Assembly: GCA_902521615.1 (NCBI GenBank)
Contig: CABYSJ010000001.1
Location: 124,732-188,731, forward strand
Origin: an uncultured Pelagibacteraceae bacterium
Lineage (GTDB): Bacteria > Pseudomonadota > Alphaproteobacteria > Pelagibacterales > Pelagibacteraceae
Length of the DNA stretch: 64,000 nt
Reading direction: 5' to 3'
The notes under the pieces are model-generated. The model saw nothing but the letters and a program-made list of their open reading frames with translations, had not been told where the DNA came from and ran no database searches. Positions within the stretch are counted from its first letter, which is position 1. Every line of letters begins with the position of its first letter. A program made the translations under genes and the position numbers. This document shows positions 42,872-47,716 of the stretch, in pieces.

Positions 42872-44206
42872 CTACTGTCCATATAAGAGAGTTGGTAGCC
42901 ATAAGGCAATTTTAGGAAATATGATTATTAAAATTAAGCCTATAACTTGTAGAACCATAAATTGCATCATTCCATAATAAATATCTTTTAAATCCCATTC
43001 AGGTACTACACCTTTTAAAAAATAAGCAGACAAGGCTACAGGTGGAGATAGCCAGGCGGTCTGGAGATTTACAGCGACCAATATTGCAAACCAAGTTAAA
43101 TTAAAACCTAAAGCCTCAATTAATGGTAAAAGAATTGGGACAATAATCATCACAATTGGTACCCATTCTAATGGCCAACCTAATAAAAATATTGCAACCA
43201 TAACAATTCCTAGGATTAAATATTTATTCATTTCTAATCCTAACAAAAATTCAGTTAATAAGGTTGGAGTACCAAGTCTTGCAAATACAGCCCCGAAAAA
43301 GTTTGAAGCAGCAACTAAAACCATAATTAAAGCTGTAATTTCTAAAGTTTTAACAAGTGCCTCTTGAAGTTTAGATAGAGTTAATTTTTTATATGCTAAT
43401 GAAAGCAATAAAGCTCCCATAGCACCACAACCAGCTGCTTCTGTTGGGGTTGCAAAACCAAACAATATACTACCTAATGCAGCAAAAACGAGAGCTGCAG
43501 GTGGAACTAAACCTAAGAAAAATTCAATCCAAACTTCTTTCATGCTCGCTGCCCTCATTTCCTCTGGAATTACAGGACCTAGTTTAGGATTTATCATGCA
43601 TCTTATTGTTGTGTAGCCAGCGTATAAACTTGCAAGAAGAATTCCAGGAATTATAGCTGCAGCAAATAAGTCAATTACAGGAATTTCCATAATTGGACCC
43701 ATCACAACAAGCATAATACTTGGTGGAATTAAAATTCCTAAAGTACCACCAGCTGTAATTGTGCCAGCTGCAAGTCTTACATCATAACCAGATCTATTCA
43801 TTGATTTTGCAGCCATGATTCCCAGTATGGTTACTGAGGCACCAACAATTCCTGTTGCTGCAGCAAAGATAACTGAAACAAACAATACAGCATAATACAA
43901 TGCACCTCTTACTCTAGCCAACATCATTTGAAATGATGAGAACAATCTTTCCATCAGTCCTGCTTGTTCCATCATAATGCCCATAAAGACAAAGAGCGGG
44001 ACGGCGGCGAGGGTTTGTTCAGTCATGACCATCGAGAACTGGAGGGTCATTAAATAAAAGACTAATTTTCCAAATCCTAGATACCCAAATACAAAACCTA
44101 AGAAAATTAATGTAAATGAAATTGGAAATCCGACAAAAATTGCAAAAAGCATTACTCCAACTAAAATAAAACCTAAAATGGCCGGATCAATTAATTCTGC
44201 TATCAT
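42872..44206 (-). CDS. TRAP transporter large permease (DctM)
   Basis: LAAVPLFVFMG, AAATGIVGAS, GTLGILIPPS, ATPTEAA, WLSPPVA. Confidence 0.95.
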   Translation of the reverse strand: MIAELIDPAILGFILVGVMLFAIFVGFPISFTLIFLGFVFGYLGFGKLVFYLMTLQFSMVMTEQTLAAVPLFVFMGIMMEQAGLMERLFSSFQMMLARVRGALYYAVLFVSVIFAAATGIVGASVTILGIMAAKSMNRSGYDVRLAAGTITAGGTLGILIPPSIMLVVMGPIMEIPVIDLFAAAIIPGILLASLYAGYTTIRCMINPKLGPVIPEEMRAASMKEVWIEFFLGLVPPAALVFAALGSILFGFATPTEAAGCGAMGALLLSLAYKKLTLSKLQEALVKTLEITALIMVLVAASNFFGAVFARLGTPTLLTEFLLGLEMNKYLILGIVMVAIFLLGWPLEWVPIVMIIVPILLPLIEALGFNLTWFAILVAVNLQTAWLSPPVALSAYFLKGVVPEWDLKDIYYGMMQFMVLQVIGLILIIIFPKIALWLPTLLYGQ

Positions 44207-44817
44207 TCATCTTCTCCTGGCCATTTTCCTCTTGTGGCAGCCCAATAACTTTTAAATAATTCTGAAATACCTTGGATTAGTAAAAATATTATTCCAATAA
44301 GTAGGCAACTTTTAATTGGCCACATATAGGGCATCCAGGTTGTATCCATTCCTCTTTCACCTCTTTGAATAGACTCACCTACATATCCAATAGTCATGTA
44401 AAGAAATACTATTAAGCCTGGAAAATAAAATAAAATATATAACCAAAAATCAATTGTTCCTTGATTTTTAGTTTTAAAATTTCTGTATAAAAAATCAGCT
44501 CTGATATGAACACCTTTAGAAAGTGCATAACCAGCACCCAACATAAAAAGTGCACCATATAAAAAGCGACTTATATCATAAGCCCAAATTGTTGGGGAAT
44601 GAAATAATTTTCTAGCAAGAACTTCATAAGTCATTGCAAGAATTAATGGCATTAATATCCAGCAAACAATGTTACCAACCCATTTGCTAAATTTATCTAT
44701 ATTTACAATTGAACTTGCCATCCATGGTGGCATATCACTTGGCATTTTTCCTGAACCACCTCGCCTTTCGGCAATCATTTCATCTGATATATCTAATTTA
44801 CCTGGTTCGTCTGCCAT
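44203..44817 (-). CDS. TRAP transporter small permease (DctQ)
   Basis: 4 TM; YEVLARKLF, PTIWAYD, HIRADFLY. Confidence 0.93.
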   Translation of the reverse strand: MADEPGKLDISDEMIAERRGGSGKMPSDMPPWMASSIVNIDKFSKWVGNIVCWILMPLILAMTYEVLARKLFHSPTIWAYDISRFLYGALFMLGAGYALSKGVHIRADFLYRNFKTKNQGTIDFWLYILFYFPGLIVFLYMTIGYVGESIQRGERGMDTTWMPYMWPIKSCLLIGIIFLLIQGISELFKSYWAATRGKWPGEDE

Positions 44818-44882: not shown

Positions 44883-45977
44883 TTACTTTAATGTTGCTGC
44901 GTGAGCCATTCCTAGCTTCGCATTAGACATTTGAGCACCACTCCAGAAAGGAACTGCGATATCAGCAAATTCTTTCATAGAGTCCCAAACTTCAGCAAAG
45001 AATGCATTTTTAGCTGCGTTTGTTTCCAAACTTTTCTTAGCAGCTGCCATGTATTCTGTGAAGTAATCAGAAGGTGTATCTTCTAATTTTACACCATGAA
45101 CTTCTGTAAGCTCTTTTAAAGCTTTTCCATTTTCATAGATTCTGTAACTTAGAGATTTCGCTAGAGATGCATTTGCTGCAACTTCTAAAGACTTCTTCTC
45201 ATGAGCGCTCATAGCTTCATATGTTTTTCCAGTAATATAAAAATCAGCATTTACGACTACTTGGTGTAAACCTTGTAGGTAGTAGTGCTTTAATACTTTT
45301 TGGAAACCAAACGTTAAGTCTGGTTTTGGACAACACCATTCAGCAGCATCAATAGTTCCTGCTTCTAAAGCTGGTAGAATATCTCCACCACCCATAGCAA
45401 CAGATGCTATACCGATATCTTTATATGTTTGTCCTGGAATTCCTGGAGGAGTTCTGAACTTATATTTTCTAAAGTCAGCCATATCTTTAATTGGTTTTGG
45501 AAACCAACCTAAAGCTTCAGGACCAACTGGTTGAATCATAAATCCTTTAATATCTCTTCCCATTTCTTTCCATAGTCTGTCGTATAGCTCTTTTCCTCCA
45601 CCATACTGAAACCATGATAAGAATGCGATGTTGTCAATACCAACACCACCACCTGCTACTGGCGAACCAAATAACATAGCGGCAGGGTGATCACCTGACC
45701 AATAGTGCGTCCAAGCAAATCCACAATCGATAAGTCCTTTATCAACTGCATCTAAAGTTTCTTTAACACCAACAACAGCTCCTGCAGGCATAATTTCAAA
45801 CTTAAGAGATCCACCTGTCAAAGTTGTAACAGTGTCAGTAAAGTCTTTTAACATTTTAACTTCATCAGCTTTAGTGTTAAGAACTGTCTGACATTTTAGT
45901 GTTTTTGCAGCATTAGCATTTGAAATAAATCCAAACACCATCGCAACTGCAAATAACATTGAAATGATTTTTTTCAT
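44883..45977 (-). CDS. TRAP substrate-binding protein (DctP; lactate / alpha-ketoacid-binding subfamily)
   Basis: Signal peptide, AWTHYWSG, KFRTPPG, LEAGTIDAAEW, GLHQ; strong SD AGAGAGGGA. Confidence 0.92.
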   Translation of the reverse strand: MKKIISMLFAVAMVFGFISNANAAKTLKCQTVLNTKADEVKMLKDFTDTVTTLTGGSLKFEIMPAGAVVGVKETLDAVDKGLIDCGFAWTHYWSGDHPAAMLFGSPVAGGGVGIDNIAFLSWFQYGGGKELYDRLWKEMGRDIKGFMIQPVGPEALGWFPKPIKDMADFRKYKFRTPPGIPGQTYKDIGIASVAMGGGDILPALEAGTIDAAEWCCPKPDLTFGFQKVLKHYYLQGLHQVVVNADFYITGKTYEAMSAHEKKSLEVAANASLAKSLSYRIYENGKALKELTEVHGVKLEDTPSDYFTEYMAAAKKSLETNAAKNAFFAEVWDSMKEFADIAVPFWSGAQMSNAKLGMAHAATLK

Positions 45978-46120: not shown

Positions 46121-47716
46121 ATGGATAATTTTGATTATATTATAATTGGTGCTGGATCAGCTGGATGTGTTCTTGCTAACAGAATTTCATCTAATCCTAG
46201 GAATAAAGTCTTGCTTTTAGAGGCAGGTGGTAAAGATACTAATCCATGGATACATATTCCTGGAGGGTATTTTAAAACAATGCATAATCCTGAGACAGAT
46301 TGGTGTTTTAACACTGAGGAAGAGCCTTTCTGTGATAATAGAAAGATGACTTACCCAAGAGGAAAAACACTTGGAGGAAGTTCTTCTATTAATGGAATGC
46401 TTTATATTCGAGGACAATCAAATGATTATAATTATTGGAGACAATTAGGAAATGTAGGATGGTCATGGGATGATGTGCTTCCTTATTTTAAGAAATCTGA
46501 AGATTTCCAATTTGGAGAAAATGAATTTCACGGTTCTGGCGGACCTTTAAAGGTAGAAAAAATTAGATCTACATTCAAAGTTTTAGACTTGTTTTTAGAA
46601 GCTGCAGAGGAATTTGGATATAAAAAAACTGATGATTTTAATAACGGCAATAATGAGGGAATGGGATATTTCCCTTTAACAGTAAAAAATGGTTTTAGAT
46701 GTAGCACAGCAGTTGGCTATTTAAATCCAGTAAAAAGTAGAAGTAATTTAAAAATTATAACTAAAGCTCATATCAAAAATATTGAATTCGATAATAAAAT
46801 TGCCAAAAAAGTTAATTTTTGGACTGGTGACAAGTTAAATACTGTTGAAGCAAACAGTGAAATCATTTTAAGTGCTGGTACTATTGGATCTCCACATATT
46901 CTTCAAGCTTCAGGTTTGGGGCCAGCTAAATTATTAAAACATAACGGTATTGAAGTTTTAATGGATAATAAAAATATAGGCCAAAACTTAACTGACCATC
47001 TAATGTTAAGACCTGTATATAAGATAAAAAATTTAGAAACATTAAATGACATTTATTATAGCTTTACTAAAAAAATATTTACTGGATTAAAATTTTTTTT
47101 AACACGAACTGGTCCTCTTACTGTTGGTGCTAGTTATTTGTGCGGTTTCATAAAGAGTGATCCACATTTAGAAACTCCTAACTTACAATTTCATGTTTCT
47201 CCTGCTAGTACAGATTTCTTAGGAAAATCATCGTTACACAAATTTCCTGCTTTCACACCAACCATTACTAATGTAAGACCTACTAGCAGAGGATCTATTG
47301 AACTTAAATCTTCCGATACAAGAATTCCTCCAAAGATTAAAATGAATTATCTATCTACAGATGAAGATAGAGAAATAGCAGGTAAGTCTCTTAAAATAGT
47401 AAGAAAAATAGTTATGGAGTCCAATGCCTATAAAGATTATGGACCTGAAGAATTGAGGCCAGGTATAAATATTACTGACAATGAGCAGTTAGCTGTTGAA
47501 GCGGGAAAATATGCTAATACAATTTTCCATCCTGTCAGTACTTGCAGAATGGGCAAAGATGAAAATGCAGTAGTGTCTGATCAGTTAAAGGTTCATGGAG
47601 TCAAAAACTTAAGAGTGATTGATGCATCAGTAATGCCTTATATCACCTCAGGAAATACTAATGCTCCAACAATAATGATTGCGGAAAAAGGTGCAGACAT
47701 GATACTACAGCAGTAA
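46121..47716 (+). CDS. GMC family FAD oxidoreductase (IseJ/BetA-like)
   Basis: GAGSAGC, RGKTLGGSSSING, IFHPVSTCRMG, SGNTNAPTIMIAEKG. Confidence 0.92.
   Translation: MDNFDYIIIGAGSAGCVLANRISSNPRNKVLLLEAGGKDTNPWIHIPGGYFKTMHNPETDWCFNTEEEPFCDNRKMTYPRGKTLGGSSSINGMLYIRGQSNDYNYWRQLGNVGWSWDDVLPYFKKSEDFQFGENEFHGSGGPLKVEKIRSTFKVLDLFLEAAEEFGYKKTDDFNNGNNEGMGYFPLTVKNGFRCSTAVGYLNPVKSRSNLKIITKAHIKNIEFDNKIAKKVNFWTGDKLNTVEANSEIILSAGTIGSPHILQASGLGPAKLLKHNGIEVLMDNKNIGQNLTDHLMLRPVYKIKNLETLNDIYYSFTKKIFTGLKFFLTRTGPLTVGASYLCGFIKSDPHLETPNLQFHVSPASTDFLGKSSLHKFPAFTPTITNVRPTSRGSIELKSSDTRIPPKIKMNYLSTDEDREIAGKSLKIVRKIVMESNAYKDYGPEELRPGINITDNEQLAVEAGKYANTIFHPVSTCRMGKDENAVVSDQLKVHGVKNLRVIDASVMPYITSGNTNAPTIMIAEKGADMILQQ

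What the first reader, a model, noticed from the sequence alone, without database searches (positions are those of the whole stretch)
43979..44050. 72-bp high-GC3 codon tract inside dctM
The 24 codons for MTLQFSMVMTEQTLAAVPLFVFMG include 15 of 20 non-Met codons ending in G/C (ACC CTC CAG TTC TCG GTC ACC CTC GCC GCC GTC CCG CTC GTC GGC). By hand count 43981-44050 is 38/70 G+C (54%), against 14/60 in the next 60 nt and 22/60 in the previous 60 nt. The bias is synonymous, so amino-acid content does not explain it. It is the strongest such tract I saw in the window. Options: a micro-recombination patch from a high-GC homologue, an embedded RNA element or sRNA target, a rare-codon pause after the first TM helices, or an assembly chimera.
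Basis: seen in the sequence. Interest (0 to 1): 0.65.

Follow-up and report, generated by a model that had tools for sequence, protein, structure and literature searches.

The report
Conserved rare-codon cluster in SAR11 dctM
A short run of unusual G/C-ending (mostly C-ending) codons in a SAR11 nutrient-transporter gene is real and has been kept at the same protein position in about 50 related genomes and in a distant gene copy, so it is most likely held by selection on how the mRNA is read, not by an assembly error or a foreign DNA patch.

Summary
Codons 53-76 of dctM (window 43979-44050, minus strand) hold 15/20 G/C-ending non-Met codons in a genome with GC3 of 0.14 (expected 2.9; P about 1e-9 per window). 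It is the strongest such tract in a real gene of the 1.2-Mb assembly. It is not a chimera: contigs from four independent metagenome studies span both edges. It is not a recent patch: 50 Pelagibacteraceae orthologues keep the six-codon core L66-A-A-V-P-L71 at GC3 0.67 (background 0.16), although synonymous sites are saturated, change at the normal rate and flip both ways. A 43%-identical paralogue family peaks at the same position. The preference is codon-specific (GCC, ACC, GTC, CTC, CCG), which argues against GC-biased conversion and against copying typical GC-rich homologues (CTG, GTG). These codons are rare and are not preferred in ribosomal-protein genes. No RNA fold, Rfam hit, repeated motif or sRNA partner was found. 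Non-SAR11 homologues, including the sister clade, show no excess. Best reading: a SAR11-restricted rare-codon cluster maintained by selection at TM3a/3b. It probably acts during translation and membrane insertion, but that mechanism is inferred, not shown.

The parts
42872..44206 (-). dctM, the large permease (M subunit) of a TRAP transporter, 444 aa
   Evidence: ORF. Pfam PF06808 DctM, E 3.4e-72, covering 17-433. Matches solved TRAP M subunits 7qha_B, 8y4w, 7qe5 and 9pym.
43979..44050 (-). The reported tract: codons 53-76, a zone of raised G/C-ending codons that aligns to TM3a-TM3b of scaffold I
   Evidence: 15/20 in this genome. Mean GC3 is 0.456 over 50 SAR11 orthologues; the next best 24-codon window scores 0.25 and the background is 0.157. 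Topology comes from the alignment to PpSiaM and PMC9971032.
43994..44011 (-). Persistent core: codons 66-71, L-A-A-V-P-L = CTC GCC GCC GTC CCG CTC
   Evidence: Per-codon GC3 is 0.42-0.88 (mean 0.667) in 50 SAR11 genes. Third bases are C 160, G 40, A 54, T 46. In 47/50 genes it is among the rarest 5% of six-codon windows. No polymorphism at >=10% depth was listed here in four metagenomes.
43055..43060 (-). Second, smaller hot spot: codons T383-A384 (ACC GCC), just before the S-P-P twin-proline break
   Evidence: GC3 is 0.82/0.82 in 50 SAR11 genes and 0.89/0.78 in 18. A384 and S387 align to PpSiaM G366 and T369, the Na2 site at the TM11a-b break. Paralogue family B has its second-highest GC3 window at ref. 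386-392.
44203..44817 (-). dctQ (small membrane subunit); its stop overlaps the dctM start (ATGA)
   Evidence: Pfam PF04290, E 8.5e-23; sequence.
44883..45977 (-). dctP (periplasmic solute-binding subunit)
   Evidence: Pfam PF03480, E 1.5e-27.

Best explanation
The tract is a lineage-specific cluster of rare, mostly C-ending synonymous codons in the SAR11 (Pelagibacteraceae) TRAP permease gene dctM, and it is evolutionarily maintained. It is centred on codons 66-71 (L-A-A-V-P-L), which align to TM3a/TM3b of the scaffold domain, and a weaker halo covers codons 52-75. Shown: the bias is real, it is specific to this protein position, and it is shared by about 50 orthologues and by a 43%-identical paralogue family. 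It is kept as a shifted equilibrium while these sites turn over at the normal synonymous rate. Inferred: the force is natural selection on the transcript, because the preference is strand-specific and codon-specific (GCC, ACC, GTC, CTC, CCG). Its strength is roughly S = 2.7-3 per site, from the odds (0.67/0.33)/(0.12/0.88). Most likely mechanism, not shown: these non-preferred codons change local decoding or elongation while the ribosome reads TM3. At that moment TM1 has emerged and TM2 is still in or leaving the exit tunnel. This would tune co-translational membrane insertion or folding of the N-terminal scaffold helices, as a position-specific rare-codon cluster does. My estimate is about 0.8 that selection on the mRNA maintains the tract, and about 0.4 that the mechanism is translation kinetics; the confidence given here is for the whole statement, mechanism included.
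For: The tract is real and extreme. It is conserved in 17 same-genus orthologues and in 50 named Pelagibacteraceae genes: core GC3 0.667 and zone 0.456, against 0.157. Paralogue family B (10 genomes) has its top GC3 window at the same aligned position, 0.43-0.45 against 0.157. Among 98 polytopic membrane ORFs, DctM-family genes rank 1, 2 and 4 for GC3 at codons 53-82. Four-fold sites are saturated between lineages: identity 0.43-0.48 against 0.39-0.41 expected at random. Core third positions change as often as the others (10.4 against 11.9 changes per site) and in both directions (18 AT>GC, 24 GC>AT). The preference is specific to strand and codon: C 53% and G 13% in the core against 6.3% and 5.5% in the background; GCC 38:2 over GCG, CTC 40:4 over CTG, CCG 20:1 over CCC. 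The codons are rare genome-wide (CTC is 1.7% of Leu codons) and not preferred in tuf and ribosomal-protein genes (CTC 0.16x, TCG 0.37x, GGC 0.65x, ACC 0.70x, GTC 0.75x). In 47/50 SAR11 genes the core is among the rarest 5% of windows. Amino-acid content, the GC of codon positions 1-2, neighbouring Pro codons and deep conservation do not explain it. Position-specific conservation of rare codons, and pauses in membrane-protein synthesis, are described phenomena (PMC5438181; PMC6894576 abstract).
Against: No measurement of translation exists here. Non-SAR11 homologues show no excess G/C and no marked rarity at the motif. This includes the sister clade Arenicellales and an AT-rich gammaproteobacterial single-cell genome (core 0.60 against 0.54, and 0.89 against 0.84; rarity percentile median 0.28-0.30). 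A universal folding pause in DctM is therefore not supported. There is no significant general '+70' or post-TM1 bump in this genome's membrane proteins. Decoding is mixed: CTC, GTC, ACC and GGC have cognate G34 tRNAs in a complete relative, and only GCC and CCG rely on U34 wobble. 'Slow codons' is therefore an assumption. The preference for particular bases (a shared CCGCC) also fits a linear sequence element.
Confidence: 0.42

Rival explanations
1. The tract is an unstructured, C-rich cis-element in the mRNA (shared core CCGCC / CCGCCGUC). A trans-acting factor in SAR11 reads it, for example Rho (a rut-like site giving polarity when translation stalls), an RNA-binding protein, or a short sRNA seed. 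It sits at this motif because the codon skeleton there (ACN CTN GCN GCN GTN CCN CTN) is already C-rich.
For: The preference is for particular bases, not just G+C. Family A favours G-CCGCC-GTC, family B A-CCGCC-GTC, and the second hot spot is A-CCGCC-TGG. In-frame xCC-GCC occurs only 10 times in the genome, and 3 of these are in TRAP permease genes. The GC3 hot spots of dctM coincide with several of its most C-rich codon skeletons. Rho is encoded. The effect is restricted to SAR11, as expected for a lineage-specific factor.
Against: The tract (C 25, G 15) is not among the top C>G windows of the genome. No complementary RNA partner stands out. There is no Rfam hit or conserved structure. Individual sites still vary freely (55-88% consensus), which is loose for a recognition site. 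A rut site early in the last gene of the operon has no obvious role.
Confidence: 0.2
2. This is negative design. G/C-ending, mainly C-ending, codons are kept to avoid a harmful signal that the usual A/U-rich codons would create at this motif. One candidate is spurious internal initiation at the in-frame ATG cluster M75/M78/M79, which lies 10-27 nt downstream. Others are an RNase E site or a slippery U-run.
For: The core lies exactly where a ribosome-binding or standby region for ATG75 would be. C, rather than G, avoids Shine-Dalgarno-like purine runs. CTT is never used at L71 in the 18 same-genus orthologues and only 5 times in the 50 named genes, and GTC is frequent at V73; both break T-runs.
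Against: Genome-wide there is no rise in C3 upstream of internal ATGs or ATG clusters; it is flat at about 0.08. The second hot spot in family A has no downstream Met. TTA is also avoided at L71, and no slippage argument explains that.
Confidence: 0.1
3. The cause is neutral or DNA-level. The tract could be a remnant of a GC-richer donor gene, it could come from recurrent short recombination patches from GC-rich homologues, or it could reflect GC-biased gene conversion focused on the most conserved motif, including conversion between paralogues.
For: The gene family has clearly been transferred horizontally. The SAR11 clade is sister to gammaproteobacterial Arenicellales at 78-80% identity, and the distribution is patchy (16/251 class genomes). 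Unchecked earlier scan notes report mirror-image A/T-rich patches on conserved motifs in GC-rich genomes.
Against: Synonymous sites are saturated and the rest of the gene is at the SAR11 equilibrium. Core sites turn over at the normal rate with repeated AT>GC gains. C exceeds G four-fold, and the choices are codon-specific; these are asymmetries that a strand-symmetric DNA process does not give. GC-rich homologues use CTG and GTG, not CTC and GTC. A and B copies match at third positions no better within a genome than between genomes, 0.33 against 0.29. Equally conserved motifs such as GILIPPS stay A/T-ending. The sister clade shows no excess.
Confidence: 0.07
4. The tract is an assembly chimera, contamination of the single-cell or metagenome assembly, or a chance fluctuation.
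For: The window comes from a fragmented assembly (31 contigs). The tract covers a conserved motif, where cross-assembly is conceivable.
Against: A 985-nt contig in run X1, and overlapping contigs in X2, X4 and X13, cover both boundaries with 0-3 differences. The tract is present in complete Pelagibacter chromosomes and isolates. P is about 1e-9 per window.
Confidence: 0.01

Closest known systems
Position-specific conserved rare-codon clusters (Chaney et al. 2017, PMC5438181; the Sherlocc-type 'conserved rare codon clusters')
   Same: It is a cluster of codons that are rare in the organism's own usage. It lies inside a domain, between small structural elements (TM3a/TM3b). It is conserved at the same aligned position in many homologous genes although the individual codons drift.
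   Different: Rarity is conserved only within Pelagibacteraceae (50 genes plus one paralogue family). It is not conserved in the sister clade or in 29 other homologues. There is also a preference for particular codons (C-ending; CCG for Pro), not just for rarity.
Translational pauses that assist membrane-protein targeting or insertion (the '+70 pause' idea of Kepes 1996, recalled from memory; non-optimal codon pair in the UreA transporter, PMC6894576)
   Same: It is a polytopic membrane transporter. The rare codons lie about 66-71 codons from the start, that is, when TM1 is out of the ribosome and TM2 is in the tunnel.
   Different: There is no general bump at this distance in 98 membrane ORFs of this genome. 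A second hot spot at codon 383 cannot be a targeting pause. No functional test exists.
Horizontally acquired or recombinant compositional patches (mosaic genes)
   Same: It is a short segment of atypical composition, in a gene family with a clear history of horizontal transfer.
   Different: It is present in the whole SAR11 clade and is maintained against mutation pressure with two-way flux. Its codon choice differs from GC-rich homologues. There are no breakpoints or donor-like flanks.
Synonymous constraint elements that encode RNA structures or regulatory sites inside coding regions
   Same: It shows a departure from neutral synonymous evolution confined to a few tens of nucleotides.
   Different: The substitution rate is not reduced (10.4 against 11.9 changes per site). 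Only the equilibrium base composition is shifted. No fold or covariation was found.

Membership tests
DctM, TRAP transporter large permease (Pfam PF06808) | Profile match above the curated cut-off over the full domain | tested here: met
   244 bits against a cut-off of 23.8, residues 17-433; PDB relatives 7qha_B and others
DctM, TRAP transporter large permease (Pfam PF06808) | Encoded together with DctQ and DctP subunits | tested here: met
   dctP-dctQ-dctM lie on the same strand, and the dctQ stop overlaps the dctM start
DctM, TRAP transporter large permease (Pfam PF06808) | Twin-proline motifs at the TM5a-b and TM11a-b breaks (Na+ sites) | tested here: met
   I-P-P-S at 160-163 and S-P-P at 387-389 align with the PpSiaM motifs
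Conserved rare-codon cluster (sensu Chaney et al. 2017) | The codons of the cluster are rare in the organism's own usage | tested here: met
   CTC is 1.7% of Leu codons, GCC 5.8%, GTC 5.4%, CCG 4.0%. They are not preferred in ribosomal-protein genes. The core is among the rarest 5% of windows in 47/50 genes.
Conserved rare-codon cluster (sensu Chaney et al. 2017) | Rarity conserved at the same aligned position among homologues beyond what shared ancestry gives | tested here: met
   50 SAR11 orthologues with saturated synonymous sites, plus paralogue family B
Conserved rare-codon cluster (sensu Chaney et al. 2017) | Rarity, not codon identity, conserved across taxa with different codon usage | tested here: not met
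   In 29 non-SAR11 homologues the core equals the background. The rarity percentile has a median of 0.28-0.30, and only 3/29 fall below 0.05.
Conserved rare-codon cluster (sensu Chaney et al. 2017) | Local slowing of translation | not testable with these tools
   Needs ribosome profiling or in vitro kinetics. The tRNA set shows mixed decoding.
Foreign recombination patch / mosaic segment | Confined to one or a few lineages, with donor-like codon choice and breakpoints | tested here: not met
   Found across the whole clade. It uses CTC/GTC against CTG/GTG in GC-rich homologues. The flux runs both ways.
Structured cis-regulatory RNA / Rfam family | Folding energy below that of shuffled sequence, a conserved consensus structure, or a covariance-model hit | tested here: not met
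   z = +0.52. The consensus fold (alifold) is about -2 kcal/mol. Only two sub-threshold Rfam hits, both elsewhere.
Rho-utilisation (rut)-like site | A stretch of about 70-80 nt that is C-rich, G-poor and unstructured, in an organism with Rho | tested here: inconclusive
   C 25 and G 15 in 72 nt, unstructured, and Rho is present. It is not among the top C>G windows, and no 3'-end data exist.
'+70 pause' of membrane proteins | Rare-codon cluster about 70 codons from the start, as a general feature of the organism's membrane proteins | tested here: inconclusive
   The position fits (codons 66-71). The metagene of 98 membrane ORFs shows no significant bump.

The most novel reading that the evidence does not exclude
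The C-rich core (CCGCC within CUCGCCGCCGUCCCGCUC) is a SAR11-specific regulatory element that lies inside the coding sequence and is shared by TRAP permease paralogues. An as yet unknown factor (Rho, an RNA-binding protein, or an sRNA seed) would read it to couple permease synthesis to translation or membrane-insertion status. This would be post-transcriptional control in an organism known for having very few transcription factors.
Probability: 0.15. Interest if true: 0.75.

Novelty: new variant of a known kind. Interest (0 to 1): 0.5.

Why it matters
SAR11 is the most abundant heterotroph in the ocean, and its extreme A+T richness is usually treated as a uniform outcome of mutation pressure and streamlining. 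Here six to twenty synonymous sites in a nutrient-uptake gene are held against that pressure in at least 50 species-level genomes, with an apparent strength (S about 3) comparable, as I recall, to strong codon selection in fast-growing bacteria. That shows selection on synonymous sites can be efficient and highly local in SAR11. It marks TM3a/3b (the helix that docks the binding protein) and the Na2-site break of TRAP permeases as places where the way the mRNA is read seems to matter. It also gives a concrete target, small enough to recode, for testing codon-dependent membrane-protein biogenesis or a hidden regulatory site. For annotation practice, it shows that a compositional 'island' in a streamlined genome need not be foreign DNA or an artefact.

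Tried and rejected
- **Assembly chimera:** rejected; independent contigs span both edges.
- **Chance, amino-acid content or next-base context:** rejected; expected 2.9, observed 15.
- **GC-rich or C-rich codon skeleton (positions 1-2) driving GC3:** flat genome-wide.
- **General accuracy selection at conserved residues:** other invariant motifs (GGTLGILIPPS, TPTEAAG, the Na1 twin-proline) stay A/T-ending.
- **Preferred 'optimal' codons:** the tract codons are under-used in tuf and ribosomal-protein genes.
- **RNA secondary structure:** z between -0.8 and +0.5, with no consensus fold. Rfam gave nothing relevant.
- **Dispersed DNA motif (Chi, uptake sequence, repeat):** k-mers of 10 nt or more from the tract's GC-rich part are unique in the genome.
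- **Rut-like C>G island:** it is not a top window.
- **Proline or Pro-Pro neighbourhood effect:** small, 0.18 against 0.14 at position -1.
- **Conversion between A and B paralogues:** within-genome matching equals between-genome matching.
- **Suppression of internal initiation as a general rule:** no C3 rise upstream of internal ATGs.
- **sRNA partner:** no candidate stands out.
- **Antisense ORF in the codon-aligned frame:** it would need TTA, CTA and TCA to be avoided, but L55, S58 and L66 carry them in 7-16 of 50 genomes, so it is not conserved (codon counts).
- **Universal requirement of the DctM motif:** GC-rich, intermediate and AT-rich non-SAR11 homologues show no excess.
- **Replicate lineage around G199:** it has no close relatives in the collection.
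- **Paralogue family C as a replicate:** only 4 near-identical copies exist.
- **A general class of conserved GC3 islands:** the only other run of 7 or more codons (a photolyase-like gene) is not persistent in relatives.
- **Mutational cold spot or decaying HGT remnant:** the rate is normal and the flux runs both ways.
Full report
**1. Observation.** The finding lies on the minus strand, inside a 444-aa ORF (42872-44206). This ORF is a TRAP-transporter large permease: Pfam DctM, E 3e-72. It is the last gene of a dctP-dctQ-dctM operon. The window belongs to a 1.195-Mb, 31-contig assembly with 29.4% G+C and GC3 of 0.143. A null model that conditions on the amino acid and the next base expects 2.9 G/C-ending codons. 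The probability of 15 or more is 1.2e-9 per window, about 4e-4 after ~346,000 windows.

The genome-wide sliding scan that the finding named as its own refutation test gives only four tracts with 15 or more of 24. Two of the other three lie in an ORF with GC3 0.50 on contig C18, probably rRNA, and the third sits at the 5' extension of an ORF. Only two runs of seven or more consecutive G/C-ending codons exist in the genome, and this is one.

**2. Not an artefact.** At least 14 independent marine-metagenome studies (2014-2025) hold 75-82% of the 31-mers of 43700-44350. Contigs from four of them cross both boundaries. X1 has a single 985-nt contig with 3 differences, and X2, X4 and X13 have overlapping contigs. 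The environmental consensus has ACC rather than ACT at codon 62, so 16/20. Polymorphisms in the most diverse run fall in codons 55-57, and none reach 10% of depth in the core codons 66-71.

**3. Conservation.**
- Seventeen same-genus orthologues (78-99% amino-acid identity) all carry G/C-ending codons at the same place. The consensus is ACn CTC GCC GCC GTC CCG CTC.
- A scan of one genome per species returned 80 named loci. Fifty are Pelagibacteraceae-type genes (GC3 of 0.20 or less), from single-cell genomes, HIMB isolates and complete chromosomes.
- Over these 50, the six-codon core L66-A-A-V-P-L71 has GC3 of 0.667 and the 24-codon zone has 0.456. The next best 24-codon window scores 0.25 and the background is 0.157.
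- In 47 of 50 genes the core is among the rarest 5% of six-codon windows by the gene's own codon usage.
- A second small hot spot is T383-A384 (ACC GCC; 0.82 and 0.82).
- Paralogue family B (43% identity, ten genomes) has its highest GC3 window at the same aligned position (0.43-0.45 against 0.157). Its second highest is at ref. 386-392.
- Among 98 polytopic membrane ORFs of this genome, DctM-family genes rank 1, 2 and 4 for GC3 at codons 53-82.

**4. A maintained equilibrium, not inheritance.** Four-fold sites outside the tract are essentially saturated between lineages: identity is 0.43-0.48 against 0.39-0.41 expected at random. The exception is the nearest sibling. On a tree of the 50 SAR11 genes, core third positions change as often as other four-fold sites (10.4 against 11.9 parsimony changes per site). 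They change in both directions, with 18 AT>GC and 24 GC>AT changes. So the core is neither a cold spot nor a decaying remnant. Its equilibrium composition is shifted. Under a mutation-selection balance, the odds (0.67/0.33)/(0.12/0.88), about 15, correspond to S of about 2.7 per site (inference).

**5. What the bias looks like.** It is specific to strand and codon. In the core, C is 53% and G is 13% of third bases, against 6.3% and 5.5% in the background. GCC beats GCG 38:2 and 36:2, CTC beats CTG 40:4, GTC beats GTG 21:5, and ACC beats ACG. For Pro, CCG beats CCC 20:1; CCC would create a run of six C's.

GC-rich homologues use CTG (11-12 of 18) and GTG (16 of 18) at these positions. This argues against GC-biased gene conversion and against copying from typical GC-rich donors. 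It points to selection on the transcript.

The codons are rare: CTC is 1.7% of Leu codons. They are not preferred in tuf and 29 ribosomal-protein genes: CTC 0.16x, TCG 0.37x, GGC 0.65x, ACC 0.70x, GTC 0.75x, CCG 0.91x, GCC 1.09x. A complete relative has 32 tRNAs. Leu-GAG, Val-GAC, Thr-GGU and Gly-GCC exist, but Ala and Pro each have only a U34 tRNA. Decoding of the tract is therefore mixed.

**6. Explanations tested and not supported.**
- Amino-acid content, the GC or C richness of codon positions 1-2, neighbouring Pro codons and deep residue conservation do not predict GC3, in this gene or genome-wide.
- RNA structure: z = +0.52 against dinucleotide shuffles, a consensus fold of about -2 kcal/mol over 18 orthologues, and no Rfam family.
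- The tract's k-mers are unique in the genome.
- No complementary RNA partner stands out.
- The tract is not a top C>G window, although Rho is present.
- There is no general rise of C3 upstream of internal ATGs.
- There is no A-B paralogue conversion.
- There is no significant '+70' bump in membrane proteins generally.
- The only other long G/C-ending run in the genome lies in a photolyase-like core gene and is not persistent in relatives (mean GC3 0.32 over 11 genomes). This serves as a negative control for the conservation seen in dctM.

**7. Lineage restriction and history.** The 50 SAR11 genes form one clade (support 0.93), sister to gammaproteobacterial Arenicellales (0.96). Other close homologues (61-80% identity) are scattered over unrelated orders. 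The orthologue is absent from the second SAR11 family and occurs in only 16 of 251 genomes of the class. The family has therefore moved horizontally. Yet none of the 29 non-SAR11 homologues shows an excess at the motif. For genes with GC3 of 0.2-0.7 the core is 0.60 against a background of 0.54, and for GC-rich genes it is 0.89 against 0.84. An AT-rich gammaproteobacterial single-cell genome has 1/6, and rarity percentiles have medians of 0.28-0.30. The constraint is specific to SAR11. It is not a universal property of the DctM fold.

**8. Structural placement.** Aligned to PpSiaM (7qha_B) and read with the structure paper (PMC9971032):
- T62 corresponds to D50 on TM3a, the helix that contacts the binding protein and the Q subunit.
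- The core corresponds to residues 54-59. I infer that it lies near the Pro-containing TM3a/TM3b junction of scaffold I.
- R87 corresponds to the arm-helix R75.
- A384 and S387 correspond to G366 and T369 of the Na2 site, at the TM11a-b twin-proline break.

While codons 66-71 are decoded, TM1 should be outside the ribosome and TM2 in or leaving the tunnel. This is an inference from the usual 30-40-residue tunnel length.

**9. Interpretation.** The evidence supports a rare-codon cluster that is restricted to SAR11, mostly C-ending, and maintained by selection. The closest described kind is the position-specific conserved rare-codon cluster (PMC5438181) and the codon-dependent pauses of membrane-protein biogenesis (PMC6894576 abstract). 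It differs from these in two ways: rarity is not conserved outside the clade, and particular codons are preferred. I put about 0.8 on 'selection on the mRNA' and about 0.4 on translation kinetics or co-translational insertion as the mechanism. The main rival (0.2) is a linear C-rich element (shared CCGCC) read by a SAR11 factor. Negative design against an A/U-rich signal gets 0.1, DNA-level processes 0.07, and artefact or chance about 0.01.

**10. Earlier scan notes.** These notes are unchecked.
- They place this TRAP system next to a GMC oxidoreductase and sulfonate genes, so it may be an isethionate- or DHPS-type importer.
- They report mirror-image A/T-rich rare-codon patches on conserved motifs in GC-rich genomes.
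- I treated both as leads. The second suggests the phenomenon may be broader than this gene.

Noticed in passing
L164, L168-L170 (Arenicellales) against the SAR11 clade; window 42872-44206: The SAR11 dctM clade is sister to gammaproteobacterial Arenicellales genes at 78-80% amino-acid identity. The orthologue is patchy in Alphaproteobacteria (16/251 genomes) and absent from the second SAR11 family. This is clear inter-class horizontal transfer of the TRAP permease; the direction is unknown.
   Followed up: partly
G000 contig C4:10387-11877 (locus L099), codons 299-305: This is the only other run of 7 G/C-ending codons in the genome (GAG GGC TAC GTC CGC CAG GTG, including the very rare CGC). 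It lies on what I recall as the signature L-E-G-Y-V-R-Q-V-I-G-W-R-E-F motif of a cryptochrome/photolyase-like core gene. Relatives mostly use A/T-ending codons there (mean GC3 0.32), so it is not a persistent island.
   Followed up: yes
G000 contig C13:8743-10008 (L032) and L096-L098: DctM paralogue family C occurs in only 4 of 41 relatives, at 97-100% identity. One of them is a genome (G004) whose family-A copy is only 78% identical. This suggests recent exchange of that TRAP system among SAR11 lineages. It also has raised GC3 around the homologous S-V-P-L-F motif (10/29).
   Followed up: partly
window 44021: In all four metagenomes laid, the base here is G rather than A on the + strand. This makes codon 62 ACC instead of ACT, so the window's genome carries the minority allele and the population consensus is 16/20 G/C-ending.
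   Followed up: yes
window 44223-44310 (3' part of dctQ): One contig in metagenome X13 skips 86 nt here (depth 28). It may be a deletion variant or a contig from another organism. An 86-nt loss would shift the frame of dctQ.
   Followed up: no
G012 contig C13, both ends (L019, L023): The same dctM fragment, with in-frame stop codons, appears inverted at both ends of one 26-kb contig in a relative. It may be a pseudogene inside an inverted repeat or an assembly artefact of that single-cell genome.
   Followed up: no
G013 (complete relative), loci L063-L094: The genus has only 32 tRNA genes. Ala and Pro are each served by a single U34 tRNA (UGC, UGG), so GCC, GCG, CCC and CCG must all be read by wobble.
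   Followed up: yes
genome-wide; G000 contig C9:1944-4595, codon 63: In-frame xCC-GCC codon pairs are very rare, only 10 in the genome. Three are in TRAP permease genes: both dctM hot spots and the fused TRAP permease on C9.
   Followed up: partly
window 46121-47716 and downstream: A GMC-family oxidoreductase is divergently oriented next to the TRAP operon. Earlier scan notes list xsc and aprMBA genes further on. The transporter may import an organosulfonate; one PDB relative is an isethionate TRAP permease, 9pym.
   Followed up: no
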